Of a stretch of 37,118 nt of DNA, positions 28,260 through 37,118 are shown one piece after another; within the stretch, counting starts at the first letter, position 1; each line of letters starts with the position of its first letter. The translations under genes and the position numbers were made by a program. The notes below the pieces were generated by a model. The model was not told where the DNA came from. It worked only from the letters and a program-made list of their open reading frames with translations, and did not search any database. The stretch lies in contig WFPU01000038.1 in NCBI GenBank assembly GCA_015487435.1, forward strand, positions 1 to 37,118. The letters are read 5' to 3'. The stretch comes from Sulfurimonas sp. Its GTDB lineage: Bacteria; Campylobacterota; Campylobacteria; Campylobacterales; Sulfurimonadaceae.

Positions 28260-28829
28260 TTACTTCTTATGTAAATTTTTTATATCGTTAAAGATACTGT
28301 TTGCAAGAGCATCAATAAATTGTATCTCATCTGCTTTTAAATTTAATTTTTTTGCTATAATTTGTCGAGTTAGAGTAAGATTACCCTTGAATGGAAATTT
28401 ACTCTTTTGAATTTTTATTAATGATTTAGTATGGCTTTTTACATCAATAGTATATTCAAAACTAGGGTATGAAAGTGAGTTAGAAGGGATAGGTGTTTTA
28501 TCTCCAACAAATCTACGCTCATACACTGCATCTATCATCAAAAAATTTGCATCTATTTTTGTTGATAATAAGTTATTTTTTTCAAGTAAGCTACGAAGTT
28601 TTTCATTTAATAATAGTTCTAATTCCTTATCTGAATGGTATTTTTTGTCAGAATCTATAAGTTGAATAACATCTAAGTTCGCTTTGTAAAATTGAAATTT
28701 TTTACTTATTTTTTTCTCTATTTTTGTAGTTACTGGTGTAGTTTGTGTAGTTGGTGTACTTAGTGTTGTACAACCTGTTATACCAATAACTAATGCTATT
28801 AACAATACTTTTAAACTAAAATTTTTCAT
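28260..28829 (-). CDS. Hypothetical lipoprotein
   Basis: MKNFSLKVLLIALVIGITG-C lipobox followed by a Thr/Pro-rich tether. AAGGGA SD supports the ATG at 28829. Confidence 0.8.
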   Translation of the reverse strand: MKNFSLKVLLIALVIGITGCTTLSTPTTQTTPVTTKIEKKISKKFQFYKANLDVIQLIDSDKKYHSDKELELLLNEKLRSLLEKNNLLSTKIDANFLMIDAVYERRFVGDKTPIPSNSLSYPSFEYTIDVKSHTKSLIKIQKSKFPFKGNLTLTRQIIAKKLNLKADEIQFIDALANSIFNDIKNLHKK

Positions 28830-28863
28830 AAATGTATCCCTTGAATTCAAATATTTTACCTAA

Positions 28864-29240: not shown

Positions 29241-30755
29241 TTACTCTTCTTCTGTAGTTTTGGCTTCATGATGAATTGGTTTCATTGCGGGAAAGAGTAA
29301 AACATCTCTAATTGAGTGTTCATTAGTTAAAAGCATAACAAGCCTATCTATACCTATCCCTTGACCAGCTGTTGGTGCCATTCCGTAGCTAAGTGCATCG
29401 ATGAAATCTTCATCCATCTCGTGTGCTTCATCATCACCAGCATCTTTAGCATCAACTTGATCTTTAAATCTTTCGTATTGATCTATTGGGTCGTTTAACT
29501 CAGAAAATGCGTTTGCAATCTCACGGCCAGCTATAAAAAGCTCAAATCTTTCAGTGATTGCTGGGTTTTTATCGCTTCTTCTTGCTAGTGGAGAGATTTC
29601 AACTGGATATTCAGTAATGAATGTTGGGTTTATCAATTTTTCTTCAACAAACTCATCAAAAAGTTCCCCTTGAAGTTGCCCTAAATTCATTCCGGGTTTA
29701 ACAGCTATATTTTTAGATTTTAAGTAAGCAATTATTGAATCTTTATCGTTACATAATTCGCTAGGAATACCACCAACAGTAGTCAGAGATTCTATAAGTG
29801 GAAGTTCTGTGAAATTTTCAAAGTTTACTTCCATATCTCCGTAAGGAAGTATAGTTGGTAGGTTTAGGTGTTCAAAAAGATATTGAAAATATTCTTTAGT
29901 AATCTCAATTAAATCTTTGTAAGTTTTGTAAGCCCAGTAAAATTCAATTGAGGTAAATTCAGGATTATGAGTAGCATCCATACCTTCATTTCTAAAGTTA
30001 CGGTTAATCTCAAATACTGCCTCAAATCCACCAACGATTAATCTTTTAAGATAAAGCTCTGGTGCAATTCTTAAAAATCTATCAATTCCAAGTGCATTGT
30101 GATGAGTAACAAAAGGTTTAGCATTTGCTCCACCGGCAATAGGGTGCATCATAGGAGTTTCAACTTCTAAAAATCCTTTATCTTCAAAGAATCTTCTAGT
30201 TAAAGAGATAACTTTTGAACGGGTTTGAAAAGTTTTACGAACTTCAGAATTCATAATTAAATCTAAATATCTTTTTCTATATCTAATCTCTTTATCTGTT
30301 ACACCATGAAATTTTTCAGGAAGTGGGGCGATAGCTTTTGTTAAAAGCCTTAGAGCAGTTGCATGGATAGACAGTTCACCTTTTCCAGTTACAAATGGGT
30401 AACCCTCAATCTCAACTATATCACCAACTTCAATATTTTTTTTAAAAGTATTGTTATAGAATCCTTCAGGTAGATTATCACGAGCTATGTAAGCTTGCAA
30501 CATTCCACTTTCATCTTCTATTTTGATAAAACTTGCTTTACCCATAATACGAAAAAATTTAATACGACCACTCACTATATAGTGTCTGTTTTCATCTCTC
30601 TTATTTTCTTTGTTATTAATGTCAGAGTTTACATTTAAAAATTTATCAATAGTTGTATTTCTTTTACACTCATTTGAGTATGGATTAAAACCAGCATCTT
30701 TTAAGAGCTGTGCCTTTTCAATTCTTTGTTGGACGAATTTATTTTCAAAAACCAA
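29241..30755 (-). CDS. lysS: Lysine--tRNA ligase (class II)
   Basis: OB-fold (MGKASF), [42 protein letters not shown] motifs. TTG start. Confidence 0.98.
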
Positions 30756-30828
30756 TATATTTCCTTGTTTTTATTTTACTGCGCTTGAACCGCTGTGGTC
30801 ACTAAAGCTAGCTTCTTGATGAAGCATA

Positions 30829-31305
30829 TTATTTTTGTTGACAGCTTTGGCAAATACCATATATTTGCATAGAATGATCTAGCATTTTAAAGCCAAGCTT
30901 GTCTGCTATTTGGTGCTGTTTTTTTTCTATTTGATCATCTACAAACTCTGTTATATCTCCACACTCAGTACAAATAAGATGATCATGGTGATCTTTTGCA
31001 CCAAGTTCATATTTTTTACCTTGCGCACCAAAAGATAAGGATGTAACTATTTTGGAATCTTCAAGTAGTGATAAAGTTCTATAAACAGTAGCTATACCTA
31101 TCTTTAAATCAGGATATTTGTTTTGCAAAATATTATGTAATGATTCTGGAGTTAAATGTTCGTCTGAATTATATAGACACTCAAGAATTACTTCACGTTG
31201 AATAGTGAATTTTAAATTATTATTTTTAAGTAATACTTTAAAATCTAGTAAAAGTTGTTCGTATTCAATTGTGCGTTCGGTGAAGTTTGTTGAAATTTCT
31301 GACAT
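30829..31305 (-). CDS. fur: Ferric uptake regulator
   Basis: TIQRE, IGIATVYRTL, HHDHLICTEC and C-terminal CQSC. cvpA-fur-lysS order as in Campylobacter. Confidence 0.93.
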   Translation of the reverse strand: MSEISTNFTERTIEYEQLLLDFKVLLKNNNLKFTIQREVILECLYNSDEHLTPESLHNILQNKYPDLKIGIATVYRTLSLLEDSKIVTSLSFGAQGKKYELGAKDHHDHLICTECGDITEFVDDQIEKKQHQIADKLGFKMLDHSMQIYGICQSCQQK

Positions 31306-31955
31306 TACTTATTTCCTAGTTCAGTTTTATTTTGATCAAATTGTTCTTTGATTTTTTCTTTTACTTCATCTATTATTATTTTTGATTTATCAATGATTAT
31401 TTCATCTGTTTTTTCTTCAATTAACTCAGTAGTTTCTTCTATTGTTGCGTTTATATCATTAGTTATCTCAACTGGATCAATTTTCATTATTACAGAACCA
31501 CTTTTTTCAAGTATTGGAAACAACACACTATTTTTCATCATAGAATCAACTGTTCCCCTTAATGCTTGTATATTGTAAACAGCATGCGCAATTACAGCAG
31601 CTATTAAAAAAAACTTACTTGCTCCAAATACAAACCCAAGTATACGATCATACACTCCAAGTCCGCTAAGTTTGCCAAGTTTTTTAAACACAAAGCCAAT
31701 AAAAATCATAATTAACCAAAAAACACCAAGTGTTATTAAAAAACCAGTGAAAGAAACAGCACCATTATTATCAAAGTTAAAAATTAGATTATTTAAATAG
31801 TCTCCAACATCTGAACCAAATCTAGATGCTATAAAAATACCACCAATAATTCCAATCAATCCAAATACCTCTTTAAAAAAACCGTTTAAGATCCCTTTTA
31901 ATCCTAAAAGTAGGATGATTATTGATGCTATAAGGTCAAAGTAGTTAAATTCCAT
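31305..31955 (-). CDS. cvpA: CvpA family membrane protein
   Basis: YFDLI...KGILNGFFKE, DRILGFVFG motifs and four hydrophobic segments. Confidence 0.9.
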   Translation of the reverse strand: MEFNYFDLIASIIILLLGLKGILNGFFKEVFGLIGIIGGIFIASRFGSDVGDYLNNLIFNFDNNGAVSFTGFLITLGVFWLIMIFIGFVFKKLGKLSGLGVYDRILGFVFGASKFFLIAAVIAHAVYNIQALRGTVDSMMKNSVLFPILEKSGSVIMKIDPVEITNDINATIEETTELIEEKTDEIIIDKSKIIIDEVKEKIKEQFDQNKTELGNK

Positions 31956-31956
31956 A

Positions 31957-32871
31957 TTATGATAACTCCAAGTTTAATTGGTTTTTTCCATTACGTTTGG
32001 ATGTGTAGAGTGCTTTATCCGCTCTTGATAAAAATGAATCCGGAGTGTCACCGAGTCTGAATTTACTTATACCAATGCTAGCAGTTACAGCAATATCATT
32101 ACCCATATAGATAAGATTATTGCCACTTATTAGTTTTAGTATTCTATTTCCAATATTAATAGAATATTTTTCATCAATTCTATTTAAAATTACAACGAAT
32201 TCTTCTCCACCAAATCTAAATATTTTATCTCCATCACGAAGTGTTTTCTTTAAAATATTTGATACATATATCAATATTTTATCCCCAGCTACATGTCCAA
32301 AAGTATCATTTATTTTTTTAAAATTATCTAAATCTAGTATTAGCATATATATGTCGTATTCAGTAGTTGCATTTGAGCATAAATCATTTAAATAAGTATT
32401 TAACGAGCCTCTGTTATAAACTTTTGTTAAAGAATCTATATTAGACTTTTCTTTTAAAGTTTGCACTTGTCGTGTTAACTCTGTAATCATTTCGTTTGCA
32501 CGATTTACTTCACTTACCATATGTGTTTGAATCTCTGTGAACTTACCTGTTATTTTATTAACATCTATTTGATTCCCTGAACATTCCACCAAAGTTTCTG
32601 CATGTATTTGTGATAGTTCAGAAAATTTAGAATTTGTTTGTTCGTATGCATGCAAACATTTATCAGCAATCTCTTTGAACTCTTTTTCAAGTGTATTTTT
32701 TGATTTTTGATATGATTGAAGTTCATTTTGAGATACACCAGATATAAGAGACGCTGAGTTTAAAAGAAATTCAGCAAGACTCTCTTTTGATAAGTCATCA
32801 TGGTTTTCAATTAAGTCACTAAGACTAGAGCACATATCTTCTACTAGCGGTTTTAATTCGGTATTAGCCAT
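31957..32871 (-). CDS. Diguanylate cyclase (helical/coiled-coil N-terminus + GGDEF)
   Basis: DSLTKVYNR, DLDNFKKIND.FGH..GD, RxxD I-site (RDGD), RFGGEEF, RADKALY..K..GKN. Confidence 0.93.
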   Translation of the reverse strand: MANTELKPLVEDMCSSLSDLIENHDDLSKESLAEFLLNSASLISGVSQNELQSYQKSKNTLEKEFKEIADKCLHAYEQTNSKFSELSQIHAETLVECSGNQIDVNKITGKFTEIQTHMVSEVNRANEMITELTRQVQTLKEKSNIDSLTKVYNRGSLNTYLNDLCSNATTEYDIYMLILDLDNFKKINDTFGHVAGDKILIYVSNILKKTLRDGDKIFRFGGEEFVVILNRIDEKYSINIGNRILKLISGNNLIYMGNDIAVTASIGISKFRLGDTPDSFLSRADKALYTSKRNGKNQLNLELS

Positions 32872-32888
32872 TAATTAACTCTTTTTTT

Positions 32889-32916
32889 GAAATATATTAT
32901 CATTATCGCTATTATA
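32889..32916 (-). promoter_or_regulatory. -10 box (32911-32916) followed by a putative Fur box (32889-32907)
   Basis: Minus strand reads TATAAT-AGC-GATAATGATAATATATTTC, a 15/19 match to GATAATGATAATCATTATC. Confidence 0.55.
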
Positions 32917-33000
32917 CTACATTAAGCTTTAATAGAGAATAAACTATAATTTAGGAACATTTGTGTAGAATACAAAAAAAATAATTTTAAGGTACTAAAC

Positions 33001-34350
33001 ATGGGCACTTGGACACCAGATAGCTGGAGAAGCAAACCGATCTTACAACAACCAATCTATCCTAATCAAGATGAATTAGATAAAGTTTTAAAAGAGTTAA
33101 AATCTTATCCGCCACTTGTTTTTGCGGGGGAAGCTAGAAGATTAAAAGATCAACTTGCAGAAGTTGCAAATGGTGAAGCTTTTTTACTTCAAGGTGGAGA
33201 TTGTGCTGAAAGTTTTGCCGAATTTCATGCAAATAATATTCGTGATACTTTTAAAGTTTTAATGCAAATGGCTGTAGTTATGACTTATTCTGCGGGTGTT
33301 CCAGTTGTAAAAGTTGGTCGTTTAGCTGGTCAATTTGCTAAACCTCGTTCATCAAATACTGAAATACTTGATGGAGTTGAATTAGACTCTTACCGAGGAG
33401 ATATAATAAACGGTGTAGAGTTTACTAAAGAAGCTCGTACTCCTAATCCACAAAGGATGATACAAGCATATAACCAAGCATCAGCTACTCAAAATCTACT
33501 TCGTGCATTTGCTACTGGTGGGATGGCTGATCTACATCAAGTTCATAGTTGGAATTTAGACTTCGCACACAAAAGTGAAGTTTCAGAACAGTATGAAAAA
33601 CTTGCAGAAGAGATTGAGCGTTCTTTAAAGTTTATGAAAGCGTGTGGAATCACTTCTAAAACATATAGAAATCTTCGTGAGACAGACTTTTATACATCAC
33701 ATGAAGCACTACTACTTCCTTATGAAGAAGCTTTTACTAGAAAAGATTCACTAACTGGTGAGTGGTATAATACTGCTGCACATATGGTTTGGATTGGTGA
33801 TAGGACTCGTCAACTAGATGGTGCTCATATTGAATATATGAAAGGTATTAATAACCCTATTGGTATTAAAGCTGGTCCAACAATGAATCTTGAAGATTTA
33901 GTTAGATTATGTAATACATTAAATCCTAAAAATGAAGCTGGGCGTATGAATATTATTGTTCGCATGGGTGCTGATAAAGTTGGTGATGGTATGCCTAAAC
34001 TTATTCGTGCTATTGAAGCTGAGGGTATGAATGTAGTTTGGTCTTGTGATCCAATGCACGGAAATACTATTAAATCTTCAAATAATTATAAAACTCGCCC
34101 CGTAGATTCTATTTTAACAGAGATGAAACAGTTTTTTCAAGTTCATAAAGCTGAGGGAACTTATGGTGGTGGTGTCCATTTAGAGATGACGGGTAAAAAT
34201 GTAACTGAATGTATTGGTGGTAGTTTTACTGTAACTGAAGAAGATTTAAGCTCTCGCTACCATACTCATTGTGATCCCCGTCTTAATGCTGATCAATCTT
34301 TAGAATTAGCTTTTTTAATTGCAGATACTTTAAAAGAAGCAAAAAAATAA
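33001..34350 (+). CDS. 3-deoxy-7-phosphoheptulonate (DAHP) synthase class II
   Basis: [49 protein letters not shown] motifs. Confidence 0.97.
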
Positions 34351-34354
34351 TCTT

Positions 34355-34396
34355 AATGACGATAGTTTCGTCATTTTGAACTTGATCTAGAATCTA
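34355..34396. repeat. Palindromic dispersed repeat, locus 4 (one inverted unit plus a truncated partner)
   Basis: The reverse complement of 34365-34396 is TAGATTCTAGATCAAGTTCAAAATGACGAAAC. Hairpin AATGACGA-TAGTT-TCGTCATT at 34355-34375. Confidence 0.8.
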
Positions 34397-34490
34397 TTAG
34401 CTATAAGAGAGTTTAATTTATTTATATGCTAACACTGCATTAAGAAAAAATATGTATACTTTTATTATCTTTAAAAATAAAAGGTACAGA

Positions 34491-34727
34491 ATGAAACAAA
34501 TTGACGGATTAGTTCTAGATGAAAATAATGTAGCCTTTCATCCAATGATGGGGAACTCTTATCAATTAAATTTTTTAGCTAAAGAGATAATAGGTCTACT
34601 TAAGTTAAATAAAAATAAAAATGAAATAATTGATGAGATATATAATAAATATGAAGTCTCCAAAGAAGATCTATTTATAGATGTTAATGATTTTTTTACT
34701 AAACTAAAAATATATGGATTAGTATAG
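34491..34727 (+). CDS. Stand-alone PqqD-family / RiPP recognition element protein (78 aa)
   Basis: YQLN..A.EII.LL...EII..I...YEVS.E....DV..F...L...GLV follows the PqqD winged-helix pattern. AAGG SD before ATG 34491. Confidence 0.85.
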   Translation: MKQIDGLVLDENNVAFHPMMGNSYQLNFLAKEIIGLLKLNKNKNEIIDEIYNKYEVSKEDLFIDVNDFFTKLKIYGLV

Positions 34728-35743
34728 TGAAAGTTGCTGTAAGTGGATTGAACAATACAGATAATCCTGCCCCTGGAATTCCCGTAATAAAAAGTCTTCA
34801 AAAAAAAAATTCTTTAATAGGTTTTGCATATAACCCAAATGAACCTGGTAGCTACATGCCTGAAATGGTTGATAAAACCTATCTAATGCCATATCCATCT
34901 TTAGGATTTGAAGAGTTAAAAACAAGACTTTTAGAGATTAAAGAGAAAGAAAATATTGAAGCAATTATTCCTAATTTAGATGCTGAATTACCTCTTTATA
35001 TAAAGTATGCTAAAGAGATAGAGGATATGGGAATAAAGCTTTGTCTACCTAGTTATGACAACTTTGAACTTAGAAATAAAAATAAATTAGATTCATTATC
35101 AAAAAAATTAAATATATCTTACCCAAAAACATATGAGATAGGTTCAATATCAGAATTAGAAAAAATTATTGATAAATCAAAGTTTCCCTTAATGGTTAAA
35201 GGAAACTATTATAAAGCTTATATGGTAGAAAATAAGGAGAGTGCTATTGAGAGTTTTTACAATATCTCAAATGAGTGGGGTTTTCCAATTTTAATTCAAG
35301 AGGTTGTTAAAGGTGAAGAGATAAATCTTGTAGGTGTAGGTGATGGCAATGGTGAATTAAAAGGTGCAGTAGCCATTAAAAAGCTTACAACAACGGAGAT
35401 AGGGAAAATTTGGACTGGAGTAACTATAGCAAATGAAAGACTTATGCAAATAGCAAAAGATTTTATTAAACTTACTTCATGGAGAGGACCATTTGAACTT
35501 GAATGTATTATAAATATGAATCAAATATATATGATTGAAATAAATCCACGTTTTCCTGCATGGGTATATTTTGCGACTGAAATAGGTGTTAATTTACCTC
35601 AAATGGTTTTAGATATTATGCAAAAAAAAGAGATTAAACAAAAATTAGAATATCCACAAAACAAGATGTATATAAGATATACTGGTGAATTTGTAACTGA
35701 TTTTACAGATTTTATAAAATTATTATCGACAAAGGAGCTTTAG
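34727..35743 (+). CDS. ATP-grasp domain ligase of unknown substrate
   Basis: FPLMVKG, ILIQEVVKGEE, GPFELE, MIEINPRF motifs. GTG start overlaps the upstream TAG. Confidence 0.9.
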   Translation: MKVAVSGLNNTDNPAPGIPVIKSLQKKNSLIGFAYNPNEPGSYMPEMVDKTYLMPYPSLGFEELKTRLLEIKEKENIEAIIPNLDAELPLYIKYAKEIEDMGIKLCLPSYDNFELRNKNKLDSLSKKLNISYPKTYEIGSISELEKIIDKSKFPLMVKGNYYKAYMVENKESAIESFYNISNEWGFPILIQEVVKGEEINLVGVGDGNGELKGAVAIKKLTTTEIGKIWTGVTIANERLMQIAKDFIKLTSWRGPFELECIINMNQIYMIEINPRFPAWVYFATEIGVNLPQMVLDIMQKKEIKQKLEYPQNKMYIRYTGEFVTDFTDFIKLLSTKEL

Positions 35744-35744
35744 C

Positions 35745-37073
35745 ATGTCAAAATTAAAATATGAAATACCAACAATAAATAAAATAGATTTTGCAATGGC
35801 TTCAAAATATGGAAGCCCTCTAAAGAGCCAGAGAGTAAGGACTGAGATTGATGGTTTAAAAATAAGTGAATTAGTGAAAGAGTATGGAAGCCCAATATTT
35901 GTTTTTTCTCAACGTCAGATAGAGGAAAAGTATAATATTCTATATAATGCTTTTTCATCAAGATATCCAGATGTAAAATTTGCTTGGAGTTATAAAACAA
36001 ACTATCTCAATGAGATATGTAAGATATACCATGATTTAGGCTCACTCTCAGAGGTAGTAAGTGAATTTGAGTATCAAAAAGCCAGAGCTTTAGGTGTAGA
36101 GGGCAAGGATATAATATTTAATGGTCCCTATAAACCAAAAGTAGATTTAAAAATAGCGGTACAAGAGGGTGCTAAAATTCATGTAGATAATCTGTTTGAA
36201 TTAAATGATCTTCATGAGATAGCTGATGAATTAAATATTAAAATACCTGTAGCTATACGTATAAATATGGATACAGGAACATATCCTCAATGGAGTAGGT
36301 TTGGATTCAATTATGAAAATGGTGATGCTTTTGAAGCTATTAAACATATGTATGATACAGGTAAAGTTTATTTAGTTGGGATACATTCACATATTGGGAC
36401 ATTTATATTAGATACAAATGCTTATAGATTAGCTACTATGAAAATCATGCAACTAAAAGAAGAGGTAGAAAAAAAGTTTAACTCAGAGATAGAGTATATA
36501 GATTTGGGTGGTGGATTTGCTTCTAAGAGTAATCTAAAAGGTATATATCAATCTGCTGAAGTTGTAGTGCCAACTGCTGATGATTATGCTGAAGCGATAA
36601 CTAATACAATTTATGAGTTTAATAAAAGCAAAAAATTGCCAAAACTTTATCTTGAAACAGGTAGGCATCTCATAGATGAAGCTGGATACCTTTTAACTTC
36701 AGTTTGTGGGCATAAGCGATTTCCTGATGGTAAGAAAGGTTATATCTTGGATGCTGGAGTAAATTTATTGTATACATCTACATGGTATAACTTTAATATA
36801 GAGTTAGATAAACGCTACGAGGGTGATAATGAACCTAGTATGTTAAATGGACCTTTATGTATGAATATAGATGTAATAGAGGAAAATTTGATGTTACCAC
36901 CACTAGATAGAGGAAGAGTTATAACAATATCTCCAGTTGGAGCATATAATTATACTCAAGCTATGCAGTTTATACGTTATAAACCAGCAGTAATACTTAT
37001 AGATAAAAGTGGAGAGGTTAGATATATAAAAGAGGTTGATGATTTAGCTACTGTAAATTACAAAGAAGTATAG
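35745..37073 (+). CDS. PLP-dependent fold-type III decarboxylase (DAP/ornithine decarboxylase family), non-canonical
   Basis: YGSPIFVF, SYKTN (PLP Lys), IIFNGPYK, HSHIGT, DLGGGF, ETGR, GPLC, GAY motifs. Confidence 0.9.
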   Translation: MSKLKYEIPTINKIDFAMASKYGSPLKSQRVRTEIDGLKISELVKEYGSPIFVFSQRQIEEKYNILYNAFSSRYPDVKFAWSYKTNYLNEICKIYHDLGSLSEVVSEFEYQKARALGVEGKDIIFNGPYKPKVDLKIAVQEGAKIHVDNLFELNDLHEIADELNIKIPVAIRINMDTGTYPQWSRFGFNYENGDAFEAIKHMYDTGKVYLVGIHSHIGTFILDTNAYRLATMKIMQLKEEVEKKFNSEIEYIDLGGGFASKSNLKGIYQSAEVVVPTADDYAEAITNTIYEFNKSKKLPKLYLETGRHLIDEAGYLLTSVCGHKRFPDGKKGYILDAGVNLLYTSTWYNFNIELDKRYEGDNEPSMLNGPLCMNIDVIEENLMLPPLDRGRVITISPVGAYNYTQAMQFIRYKPAVILIDKSGEVRYIKEVDDLATVNYKEV

Positions 37074-37075
37074 AT

Positions 37076-37118
37076 TTGAGTATAAATAGATATAAAAGTT
37101 ATTTGTATAGTATTGTAA
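37076..37118 (+). CDS. Possible start of a fourth operon gene (3' truncated)
   Basis: TTG 2 nt after the decarboxylase stop. The frame (MSINRYKSYLYSIV) stays open to the window end. Confidence 0.4.
   Translation, partial: MSINRYKSYLYSIV

What the first reader, a model, noticed from the sequence alone, without database searches (positions are those of the whole stretch)
34491..37118. Candidate uncharacterised system: stand-alone PqqD/RRE + ATP-grasp ligase + DAP-decarboxylase-fold enzyme
Seen: three co-oriented genes with minimal spacing (TAG/GTG overlap at 34727, 1-nt gap at 35744), a TATACT -10-like box at 34455-34460, and a repeat element separating them from the housekeeping DAHP synthase. 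Established: PqqD/RRE domains present peptides to modifying enzymes in RiPP pathways and ATP-grasp enzymes form amide/ester bonds. In butirosin synthesis, the ATP-grasp BtrJ and the fold-type III decarboxylase BtrK act on Glu tethered to the carrier BtrI. No pqqB/C/E, radical SAM, lasso cyclase or precursor peptide is in the window, so this does not look like PQQ or a standard RiPP class. Inference: the RRE delivers a peptide or protein, the ligase attaches an amino acid or diamine to it, and the PLP enzyme decarboxylates that unit or makes the amine. The product could be a new modified peptide or an envelope/protein modification. I know of no characterised pathway with this trio.
Basis: partly seen in the sequence, partly recalled or inferred. 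Interest (0 to 1): 0.88.

Follow-up and report, generated by a model that had tools for sequence, protein, structure and literature searches.

The report
Lysine-tail assembly line, possible natural nylon
The three genes are the front half of a widespread, apparently undescribed six-gene bacterial operon that likely builds an amide chain, probably of GABA units as in nylon-4, on a fixed lysine in one enzyme's own tail and would export it through a urea-channel-like pore.

Summary
The trio is real. It is the cytoplasmic half of an operon: PqqD/RRE, ATP-grasp ligase, fold-III decarboxylase, urea-transporter/M23 fusion, 14-stranded barrel, TPR protein. The contig break after the window is bridged in two public runs. 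The genome has a separate true LysA. No free precursor peptide was found. Instead the decarboxylase carries a lasso-like leader motif ([YW]xxPxI) and a conserved lysine 14-15 residues further on. Two natural variants constrain the chemistry. In 2 genomes a sirtuin (lysine deacylase family) replaces M23 and the lysine stays. In 4 genomes the same membrane module sits with unrelated enzymes: an Rv2531c-type glutamate decarboxylase, another ATP-grasp and a C45 hydrolase. Best model (0.42): glutamate is ligated to the tail lysine and decarboxylated to a GABA unit, repeatedly as closthioamide CtaD/CtaF do with aspartate, then cut off and exported. Every chemical step is inferred; none was shown. 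Ten literature searches found no description. This scan has reported the operon, the lysine-tail idea and the sirtuin variant before on other DNA; the glutamate-decarboxylase variant was in none of the notes I saw.

The parts
34355..34375 (.).
   Evidence: 8-pair stem, scored on the minus strand, 1 found vs 0.0 in shuffles
34429..34444 (+). Direct repeat CTAAC-N6-TTAAG with 11-bp period, likely an OmpR-family operator, ahead of a -10-like TATACT at 34455-34460
   Evidence: 27 of 48 related loci vs shuffle mean 0.4; 23 of 28 loci with the operon's atypical response regulator vs 4 of 20 without
34491..34727 (+). Stand-alone RRE (PqqD family), 78 aa, lasso-B1-like
34727..35743 (+). ATP-grasp ligase, 338 aa, PRK12767/ATPgrasp_Ter-like; E259, E271, N273, R275 invariant
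35745..37073 (+). Fold-type III PLP decarboxylase, 442 aa, FigC/FslC-like (K84, C372, M373 invariant), with a 30-residue N-terminal tail
35760..35777 (+). Leader-like motif Y6-x-x-P9-x-I11 in the decarboxylase tail, the predicted RRE-binding site
   Evidence: aromatic 75 of 75, Pro 75 of 75; 116 of 117 further homologues
35805..35807 (+). Lys21 of the decarboxylase tail, the predicted carrier lysine
   Evidence: KxG at +14/+15 in 72 of 75; 112 of 116 vs shuffle mean 2.6; Lys at +15 in both sirtuin-variant loci
37076..37118 (+). First 14 codons of the urea-transporter/M23 fusion (about 675 aa). The gene ends on contig C134, followed by the barrel and TPR genes
   Evidence: one contig in each of runs X5 and X6 covers both ends with 1651 bases between

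Best explanation
The three genes are the cytoplasmic half of a conserved six-gene operon in which the RRE likely grips the decarboxylase's own YxxPxI tail, the ATP-grasp enzyme likely ligates glutamate by its gamma-carboxyl to tail Lys21, and the PLP enzyme would decarboxylate it to a tethered GABA unit. Repeating the two steps on the new amine would grow an uncharged, unbranched GABA amide chain (a nylon-4 oligomer), as closthioamide CtaD/CtaF grow tri-beta-alanine on a carrier protein. The M23 domain at the inner mouth of the urea-transporter-fold protein would cut the chain free, the pore would pass it, and the TPR protein and 14-stranded barrel would carry it across the outer membrane. Shown: gene content and order, family identities, tail motif and lysine conservation, intact catalytic residues, the two variants. 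Inferred: RRE-tail binding, lysine acylation, glutamate as substrate, iteration, release, direction of transport. My split: carrier-lysine mechanism with any unit about 0.55; GABA as the unit, given that, about 0.75; long polymer rather than short oligomer about even.
For: (1) Linkage: UT-M23 in 34 of 35, barrel 29 of 30, TPR 28 of 29 genome loci with room. All 48 ATP-grasp-positive genomes of 401 are among the 50 decarboxylase-positive ones. (2) Tail: motif and lysine counts. YxxP is described as an RRE-engagement motif on a 21/22-mer scaffold peptide modified at its end (PMC13622209, abstract and passages). (3) Sirtuin variant: in G661 and G590 a half-UT/Sir2 fusion (Sir2 E 6e-36, 4e-40) replaces UT-M23 beside RRE, double ATP-grasp and decarboxylase, and both tails keep Lys at +15 while losing the Gly. 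That sirtuins deacylate lysines is recalled. (4) Three genomes with Thr for Lys have no UT-M23 found. (5) GABA variant: in G240, G276, G834 and G891 UT-M23 and TPR (barrel seen in 2 of the 4 loci, a weak partial hit at a third locus's edge) sit with an Rv2531c-type decarboxylase (E 2e-185 to PDB 9n0o), a PRK06524 ATP-grasp and a C45 hydrolase (C45 seen in 3 of 4, one contig ends). Rv2531c is a glutamate decarboxylase (PMC13506015, abstract, passages, section 9). Its K406, R576, T606, R718 and N731 are kept in all 4. These UT-M23s need at least 2 changes on two quick trees. (6) In 5 plasmid PRK06524 loci read of 25 records: C45 in 5, the long decarboxylase in 4, gabT in 2, an arginine-to-GABA route in 1. 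(7) Active site: Met follows the catalytic Cys as in FigC, not the acid that binds a free amine, and FigC's citrate binders H357/R387 are Ile/Gln, so a neutral amide-linked substrate fits. (8) No helix separates TM10 from M23 in the model (pLDDT 93); loop charges put that side inside; zinc ligands are invariant in 66 of 66. (9) Precedent: CtaD/CtaF and BtrJ/BtrK (PMC7183216, passages).
Against: No biochemical step is shown. G866 has Arg at +15 with intact UT-M23, and 1 of 116 further homologues (P0282) lacks the lysine motif altogether. The nearest solved enzyme is FigC, which acts on free N-citryl-ornithine (E 1e-60), far closer than BtrK (E 5e-25). The barrel is nearest to CymA, OmpG, FadL and Omp33 (Z 19-21), mostly uptake channels by recall, and further from polysaccharide secretins (Z 11.6-12.9). 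M23 is intact in the GABA variant, where no RRE-type enzymes were found, so its substrate cannot be only an acyl-lysine. The sirtuin variant has only half a UT match and no barrel in the locus, so it may do something else. Displaced enzyme sets need not make the same product. The GABA variant is 4 genomes in 2 lineages, and the one-clade test did not finish. The three Thr genomes are kin of unknown completeness. Whether a polyamide can thread a UT pore is untested.
Confidence: 0.42

Rival explanations
1. Adaptor only: the RRE clamps the tail to hold ligase and decarboxylase together, and they make a free small amide by the FigA/FigC route (acylate ornithine or lysine on the side chain, then decarboxylate to an N-acyl-diamine), which leaves through the pore.
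For: FigC is the nearest solved structure and shares Cys-Met and the Thr on the specificity helix; FslC is the top NCBIfam hit, below cut-off; the ligase has a weak PylC-like N-domain; a small product suits a UT pore.
Against: It does not explain a lysine fixed at +14/+15, the sirtuin swap, a cytoplasmic amide hydrolase on the pore, or the glutamate-decarboxylase variant.
Confidence: 0.2
2. Same carrier-lysine line but another unit: aspartate giving beta-alanine chains (nylon-3, as in closthioamide), or diaminopimelate or aminoadipate giving lysine or aminovalerate units.
For: All tail, sirtuin and M23 evidence applies equally; CtaD/CtaF polymerise beta-alanine from aspartate (PMC7183216 passages); LysA is the second NCBIfam hit.
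Against: The variant enzyme set centres on a glutamate decarboxylase with the glutamate-binding residues kept.
Confidence: 0.14
3. Sensing or uptake: barrel and UT let a small amide or amine in, and acylation of Lys21 (written by the ligase, erased by M23 or the sirtuin) is a regulatory mark read through the RRE.
For: The barrel resembles uptake channels. The RRE is fused to a TetR-type domain in Mariprofundaceae. An atypical OmpR-type gene lies in 19 of 28 loci.
Against: The regulators differ between lineages and are absent from many loci; an ATP-dependent ligase plus an intact decarboxylase points to synthesis; the variant swaps in biosynthetic enzymes.
Confidence: 0.12
4. Envelope modification: the enzymes attach a diamine or amino acid to peptidoglycan or a surface protein, and M23 remodels the wall.
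For: M23 enzymes usually cut peptidoglycan (one search hits); the operon has envelope parts.
Against: M23 is predicted on the cytoplasmic side and is replaced by an NAD-dependent sirtuin in one variant.
Confidence: 0.06
5. A conventional RiPP with a free precursor peptide encoded elsewhere.
For: Lasso-B1-like RRE; short precursors are easily missed (PMC13622209 passages).
Against: No conserved short YxxP ORF in 74 loci (3 unrelated hits), while the decarboxylase carries the motif in 75 of 75.
Confidence: 0.03

Closest known systems
Closthioamide CtaD/CtaF/CtaE (PMC7183216, passages read)
   Same: An ATP-grasp enzyme loads a dicarboxylic amino acid by its side-chain carboxyl, a PLP decarboxylase removes the alpha-carboxyl, and the pair iterates to a short omega-amino-acid polyamide on a carrier.
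   Different: Its carrier is a phosphopantetheinyl PCP (thioester). No such gene recurs in the conserved operon; the proposed carrier is a lysine in the decarboxylase's tail, reached through an RRE, and there is a membrane release and export module.
Butirosin BtrI/BtrJ/BtrK (as described in PMC7183216 and PMC7857480 passages)
   Same: Glutamate ligated to a carrier and decarboxylated to GABA by a fold-III enzyme.
   Different: ACP thioester carrier, one cycle, transfer to an aminoglycoside; BtrK is only distantly related (E 5e-25).
Rhizoferrin FigA/FigC (FslA/FslC) (PMC7857480, passages read)
   Same: Nearest solved decarboxylase (7KH2, E 1e-60), shared Cys-Met loop; ligate-then-decarboxylate order.
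   Different: Uses an NIS synthetase and free substrates; the citrate binders H357/R387 are absent here; score 241 vs cut-off 500.
Lasso-peptide B1 RREs and RRE-scaffold pathways such as fosfazinomycin FzmZ (PMC13622209, abstract and passages)
   Same: Discrete RRE, YxxP motif, modified residue near position 21-22 of a scaffold. The tail also fits the lasso register Y-17/P-14/L-12/G+1 (register recalled).
   Different: The 'precursor' is fused to a 442-aa enzyme; no B2 protease or cyclase; Lys stands where lasso leaders have Thr-2 (recalled).
Synthase-dependent polymer export (AlgK/AlgE, PgaA, BcsC; recalled)
   Same: Inner-membrane protein, hydrolase, periplasmic TPR protein and plug-less outer-membrane barrel in one operon.
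   Different: No glycosyltransferase; UT-fold pore; 14-stranded barrel nearer to CymA/OmpG.
Urea transporters (dvUT/Yut)
   Same: Same fold (Foldseek E 4e-14), both PxxTxPF-type signatures and both Asn kept.
   Different: Fused to M23 plus an unnamed beta-rich domain; the pore-helix Gln/Glu of dvUT are Ser/Ala/Thr; score 126 vs Yut cut-off 275.

Membership tests
PQQ biosynthesis | PqqD equivalog with pqqA/B/C/E alongside | tested here: not met
   TIGR03859 17.7 bits vs cut-off 46; conserved neighbours are ligase, decarboxylase, UT-M23, barrel, TPR
RiPP (RRE-dependent) | RRE domain | tested here: met
   PF05402 above cut-off; TbiB1/TfuB1 nearest solved
RiPP (RRE-dependent) | Separate short precursor peptide in the cluster | tested here: not met
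   3 of 74 loci with an SD plus [YW]xxPx[ILV] short ORF, unrelated to each other; none in window 30001-37118. Other leader motifs were not searched
RiPP (RRE-dependent) | RRE binds a leader and delivers it to the modifying enzyme | not testable with these tools
   Needs binding assays; the motif is conserved in the decarboxylase tail
Lasso peptide | B2 protease and asparagine-synthetase-like cyclase conserved in the cluster | tested here: not met
   The seven recurring gene families in 44 loci include neither
LysA (diaminopimelate decarboxylase) | TIGR01048 above cut-off; acid after the catalytic Cys | tested here: not met
   219 vs 297.9; Cys-Met; true LysA on C168 scores 511
FslC/FigC | NF041039 above cut-off, citrate-binding residues, NIS synthetase partner | tested here: not met
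   241 vs 500; H357/R387 absent; the partner is an ATP-grasp
Noncanonical thiotemplated pathways (Cta/Btr) | ATP-grasp plus PLP decarboxylase in one cluster | tested here: met
Noncanonical thiotemplated pathways (Cta/Btr) | Phosphopantetheinyl carrier protein in the cluster | tested here: not met
   The only small conserved gene is the RRE; no PP-binding profile was run over all neighbours
Noncanonical thiotemplated pathways (Cta/Btr) | Iterative loading and decarboxylation of tethered substrate | not testable with these tools
   Needs in vitro reconstitution
Synthase-dependent polymer export | TPR protein plus outer-membrane barrel linked to an inner-membrane component | tested here: met
   barrel 29 of 30, TPR 28 of 29; barrel model
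Synthase-dependent polymer export | Barrel of the AlgE/PgaA/BcsC type | tested here: inconclusive
   Those chains score Z 11.6-12.9 against 19-21 for CymA/OmpG/FadL/Omp33
Synthase-dependent polymer export | Membrane glycosyltransferase synthase | tested here: not met
   The membrane protein is a UT-M23 fusion
Yut urea transporter | TIGR03441 above cut-off; urea flux | tested here: not met
   126 vs 274.6; flux itself not testable

The most novel reading that the evidence does not exclude
Bacteria make and secrete nylon-4. This operon is a dedicated poly-GABA synthesis and export machine: an RRE-recruited lysine in the decarboxylase's tail primes the chain, glutamate is added and decarboxylated unit by unit, and a repurposed urea channel, TPR protein and porin extrude it. 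A second, unrelated enzyme set (glutamate decarboxylase, PRK06524 ATP-grasp, C45 hydrolase) reaches the same polymer from free GABA. This would also supply a natural substrate for the dedicated polyamide-4 hydrolases of soil and marine bacteria.
Probability: 0.22. Interest if true: 0.96.

Novelty: categorically new. Interest (0 to 1): 0.82.

Why it matters
If the carrier model holds, RiPP leader recognition has been reused to load a swinging-arm lysine on an enzyme's own tail, a carrier type I found in no paper searched, and a urea-channel fold has been turned into a release-and-export device. The family is large (at least 7996 decarboxylase clusters at E <= 1e-60) and is annotated as LysA, biotin carboxylase and urea transporter, so it distorts metabolic reconstructions of vent and other environmental bacteria. 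If the product is a GABA polyamide, it would be a biological nylon with obvious use in bioplastics. It would give a function to the orphan PRK06524/C45 pair and a possible natural substrate for polyamide-4 hydrolases (PMC13269358, passages). The claim is cheap to test: three soluble proteins and mass spectrometry of one peptide.

Tried and rejected
Complex prediction of RRE + tail (1-36) + ligase + ATP gave no verdict (score 0.01, no contacts) and is not used either way. The profile search of representatives never ran. The Atlas did not hold the window's ligase or the barrel; a homologue gave clusters commonest in Bacteroidota and Campylobacterota. The one-clade test for the GABA-variant UT-M23s did not finish, so 'two origins' rests on quick trees; the second tree used 22 of 47 rows, and the 47 kept every third Campylobacterota-like row. 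Viral contigs gave 10 distant ATP-grasps without the partners. Plasmids gave no operon. The barrel has no Pfam or NCBIfam family above noise. No RNA holder was listed. The UT-M23 C-terminal domain (about 520-675) was not folded alone and stays unassigned. G236's decarboxylase looked like a variant but is a lone, tailless copy. Literature: searches returned 0 papers for combinations of PqqD, ATP-grasp, diaminopimelate decarboxylase, urea transporter, M23 and biotin carboxylase. Searches returned listings with no description of this operon, of the PRK06524/C45 pair or of natural poly-GABA synthesis (listings only; one search showed 20 of 29). Searches were background look-ups. Subscription journals are not covered, and I opened no supplements; Table S4 of PMC7183216 (CtaD homologues) could bear on novelty. 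Rejected: housekeeping LysA, PQQ, lasso peptide, cleavage of the tail at K-x|G (the Gly is lost in the sirtuin variant while the Lys stays).
Full report
Observation. The three ORFs, the TAG/GTG overlap, the 1-nt gap and TATACT are at the stated places. Pfam confirms PqqD, ATP-grasp and fold-III decarboxylase; none of the three reaches an NCBIfam cut-off. The genome holds a true LysA and SpeA elsewhere (511 and 655 bits, above cut-off), so the decarboxylase is an extra copy. The upstream 'repeat' is a terminator-like hairpin plus a direct repeat shared by relatives.

The unit is six genes. In 42 genome loci, titled almost all Campylobacterota plus one Magnetococcales and one Mariprofundaceae bin, the order is RRE, ligase, decarboxylase, a 675-aa urea-transporter/M23 fusion, a barrel, a TPR protein and often an atypical OmpR-type regulator. 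Counting loci long enough to hold each gene: 39 of 39, 40 of 40, 34 of 35, 29 of 30, 28 of 29 and 19 of 28. The window ends in the first 14 codons of UT-M23; the rest, the barrel and the TPR gene open contig C134. One contig in each of two runs from different studies covers both ends with 1651 bases between, the size the gene needs.

Range. In the window's phylum 13 of 151 genomes have a UT above cut-off, and all 13 lie beside ligase and decarboxylase, one with broken frames. In the window's genus only 2 of 25 genomes carry the ligase orthologue, so the operon is patchy. In the phylum of G182, 48 of 401 genomes have the ligase and all are among the 50 with the decarboxylase. In 40 stretches fetched from 39 of them the RRE was in 39 of 39, the decarboxylase in 40 of 40 and UT-M23 in 34 of 38. 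The best 80 of 533 metagenome loci agree. These sets overlap and contain kin, so they are not independent. Named decarboxylase homologues come from Elusimicrobiota, Bacteriovoracaceae, Melioribacteraceae, Rickettsiales and Thiomargarita (no context seen), and Atlas clusters of the ligase are commonest in Bacteroidota.

The RRE's likely client. Its nearest solved relatives are lasso B1 proteins. No conserved short precursor was found. Every decarboxylase starts with [YW]xxPx[ILMF] (75 of 75), and K-x-G follows 14-15 residues after the aromatic in 72 of 75, amid variable residues. In 120 further homologues, 117 had a full N-terminus, 116 had the leader and 112 of those the K-x-G, against a shuffle mean of 2.6 and maximum 8; these are relatives of one query. 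YxxP is the motif by which RREs engage a 21/22-residue scaffold in fosfazinomycin assembly (PMC13622209, abstract and passages). Earlier scan notes pointed me to the tail; I then found the lysine, and later notes agree. Binding itself was not shown.

Enzymes. The ligase keeps the E-x-N-P-R catalytic set in 75 of 75. The decarboxylase is nearest to FigC. It shares the Met after the catalytic Cys that replaces the amine-binding acid, but lacks FigC's citrate-binding H357 and R387 (PMC7857480 passages). Its invariant pocket residues are neutral (N340, T344, W347, N374, Q405, Q408). This fits an alpha-amino acid tethered through a neutral amide.

Membrane module. The model of UT-M23 (pLDDT 93) has the dvUT fold and no helix between TM10 and M23. 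Lys/Arg counts are high on the loops of that side and low on three of the four opposite loops; dvUT termini being cytoplasmic is recalled. So the peptidase is predicted to sit in the cytoplasm, away from peptidoglycan, with zinc ligands invariant in 66 of 66. The barrel has 14 strands and no plug and is nearest to CymA, OmpG, FadL and Omp33.

Variant with a sirtuin. Following earlier notes I searched 400 genomes of G269's class for UT (15 hits) and fetched the 10 with long or partial frames: 6 were the standard operon, 2 the GABA variant and 2 had TPR, RRE, double ATP-grasp, decarboxylase and a half-UT/Sir2 fusion. Both tails keep Y-x-P-P-x-I and Lys at +15 but lose the Gly. A lysine deacylase family standing where M23 stands is the best indirect sign of an acyl-lysine. 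Three kin genomes with Thr for Lys have no UT-M23 found. Against this, G866 has Arg at +15 with UT-M23 intact.

Variant with a glutamate decarboxylase. Of 59 UT-positive genomes among 401 I fetched 5 that lacked the decarboxylase: 3 were stand-alone transporters, and 2 (G240, G276) had UT-M23 and TPR, with the barrel in G240, around three unrelated genes. No ligase or decarboxylase of the window's type was found in those two genomes. The genes are a long fold-I decarboxylase, a PRK06524-like ATP-grasp (514 bits, below its cut-off of 684) and a C45 hydrolase. G834 and G891 repeat the arrangement on a different branch of the UT-M23 tree (quick trees). The decarboxylase matches Rv2531c at E 2e-185, shown to be a glutamate decarboxylase making GABA (PMC13506015, abstract, passages and section 9), and all four copies keep its five named substrate-site residues. 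On plasmids the PRK06524/C45 pair sits with this decarboxylase in 4 of 5 loci read and near GABA or glutamate genes in all 5. The simplest reading is that the membrane module handles a GABA amide, reached either from free GABA or from tethered glutamate.

Mechanism. Closthioamide CtaD/CtaF iterate aspartate loading and decarboxylation to build tri-beta-alanine, and butirosin does one such cycle with glutamate (PMC7183216 passages). I infer the same chemistry here on Lys21, giving an uncharged linear amide that M23 releases and the pore, TPR protein and barrel export. A carrier makes little sense for producing free GABA, which costs no ATP by direct decarboxylation, so a chain is more likely than a monomer. 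Confidence 0.42; rivals are adaptor-only small-amide synthesis 0.20, another unit 0.14, sensing or uptake 0.12, wall modification 0.06 and a conventional RiPP 0.03.

Novelty. It works like the Cta/Btr carrier pathways but fails their carrier test, uses an RRE but has no free precursor, and has the layout of a polymer exporter without a glycosyltransferase. The searches listed under Tried and rejected found no description. The scan itself has met this operon many times; those notes are leads, not support. Dedicated polyamide-4 hydrolases exist in soil and marine bacteria (PMC13269358 passages), which is compatible with, but no evidence for, a natural GABA polymer.

Noticed in passing
L241:410-9584, L242:8468-16697, L251:1-8653, L252:71-6166; plasmid loci L246-L250: An orphan trio of Rv2531c-type glutamate decarboxylase, PRK06524 ATP-grasp and C45 hydrolase, often beside gabT or glutamate dehydrogenase, and without the membrane module on plasmids of Rhizobium, Roseobacter and Chondrinema. 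It could be a cyanophycin-like GABA-amide store (synthetase plus hydrolase).
   Followed up: partly
L259:1639-9691, L260:1886-9440: Variant with long TPR protein, RRE, tandem double ATP-grasp, decarboxylase and a half-UT/sirtuin fusion.
   Followed up: partly
L111:9969-10799 and most Mariprofundaceae-type loci; P0121-P0183: The RRE is fused behind a TetR-type DNA-binding domain (about 268 aa), which suggests feedback control through the decarboxylase tail.
   Followed up: partly
L021:13885-14379, L025:14032-14646, L060:11175-11753: Operon-linked OmpR-type regulator with a degenerate receiver domain (Asn where the phospho-Asp is expected); its presence tracks the upstream direct repeat (23 of 28 vs 4 of 20). 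It is not beside the TPR gene in the window's genome (L058).
   Followed up: partly
L135:7645-10481, L136:553-3386, L142:3083-6036: Trio with Thr in place of the tail lysine and no UT-M23 found in these genomes; possibly a decayed or repurposed form.
   Followed up: partly
L124:2072-5335, L115:1897-5071, L144:1894-3567: In this lineage a second frame with a half-UT match (with TPR similarity in L124 and L144) lies near the operon; in L124 and L115 a frame starting MCGIAA, which looks like an asparagine-synthetase/glutamine-amidotransferase by recall, follows UT-M23.
   Followed up: no
L237:9128-10543: A lone, tailless, AT-rich copy of the decarboxylase among WD40, MoxR-like and TIR-like genes in a GC-rich genome.
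   Followed up: no
L084:6968-11000: In G100 both the decarboxylase and UT-M23 are split into several frames: a pseudogenised operon or assembly errors.
   Followed up: no
L016:11900-12384 (UT-M23 residues about 520-675): A confidently modelled beta-rich C-terminal domain with no family or fold hit in the whole-protein searches.
   Followed up: no
window 34785-34820: The A-run at the ligase's 5' end differs at several places in three other runs, so the window's strain or assembly differs there; the frame stays open.
   Followed up: no
window 28260-28850 (-) and 31957-32871 (-): A lipoprotein-like ORF with no Pfam family, and a GGDEF protein with an unnamed helical N-terminal part; the latter also precedes the operon in close relatives L016 and L035.
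   Followed up: no
L147-L156: Ten viral contigs carry distant ATP-grasp relatives (23-35% identity) without the partner genes.
   Followed up: no
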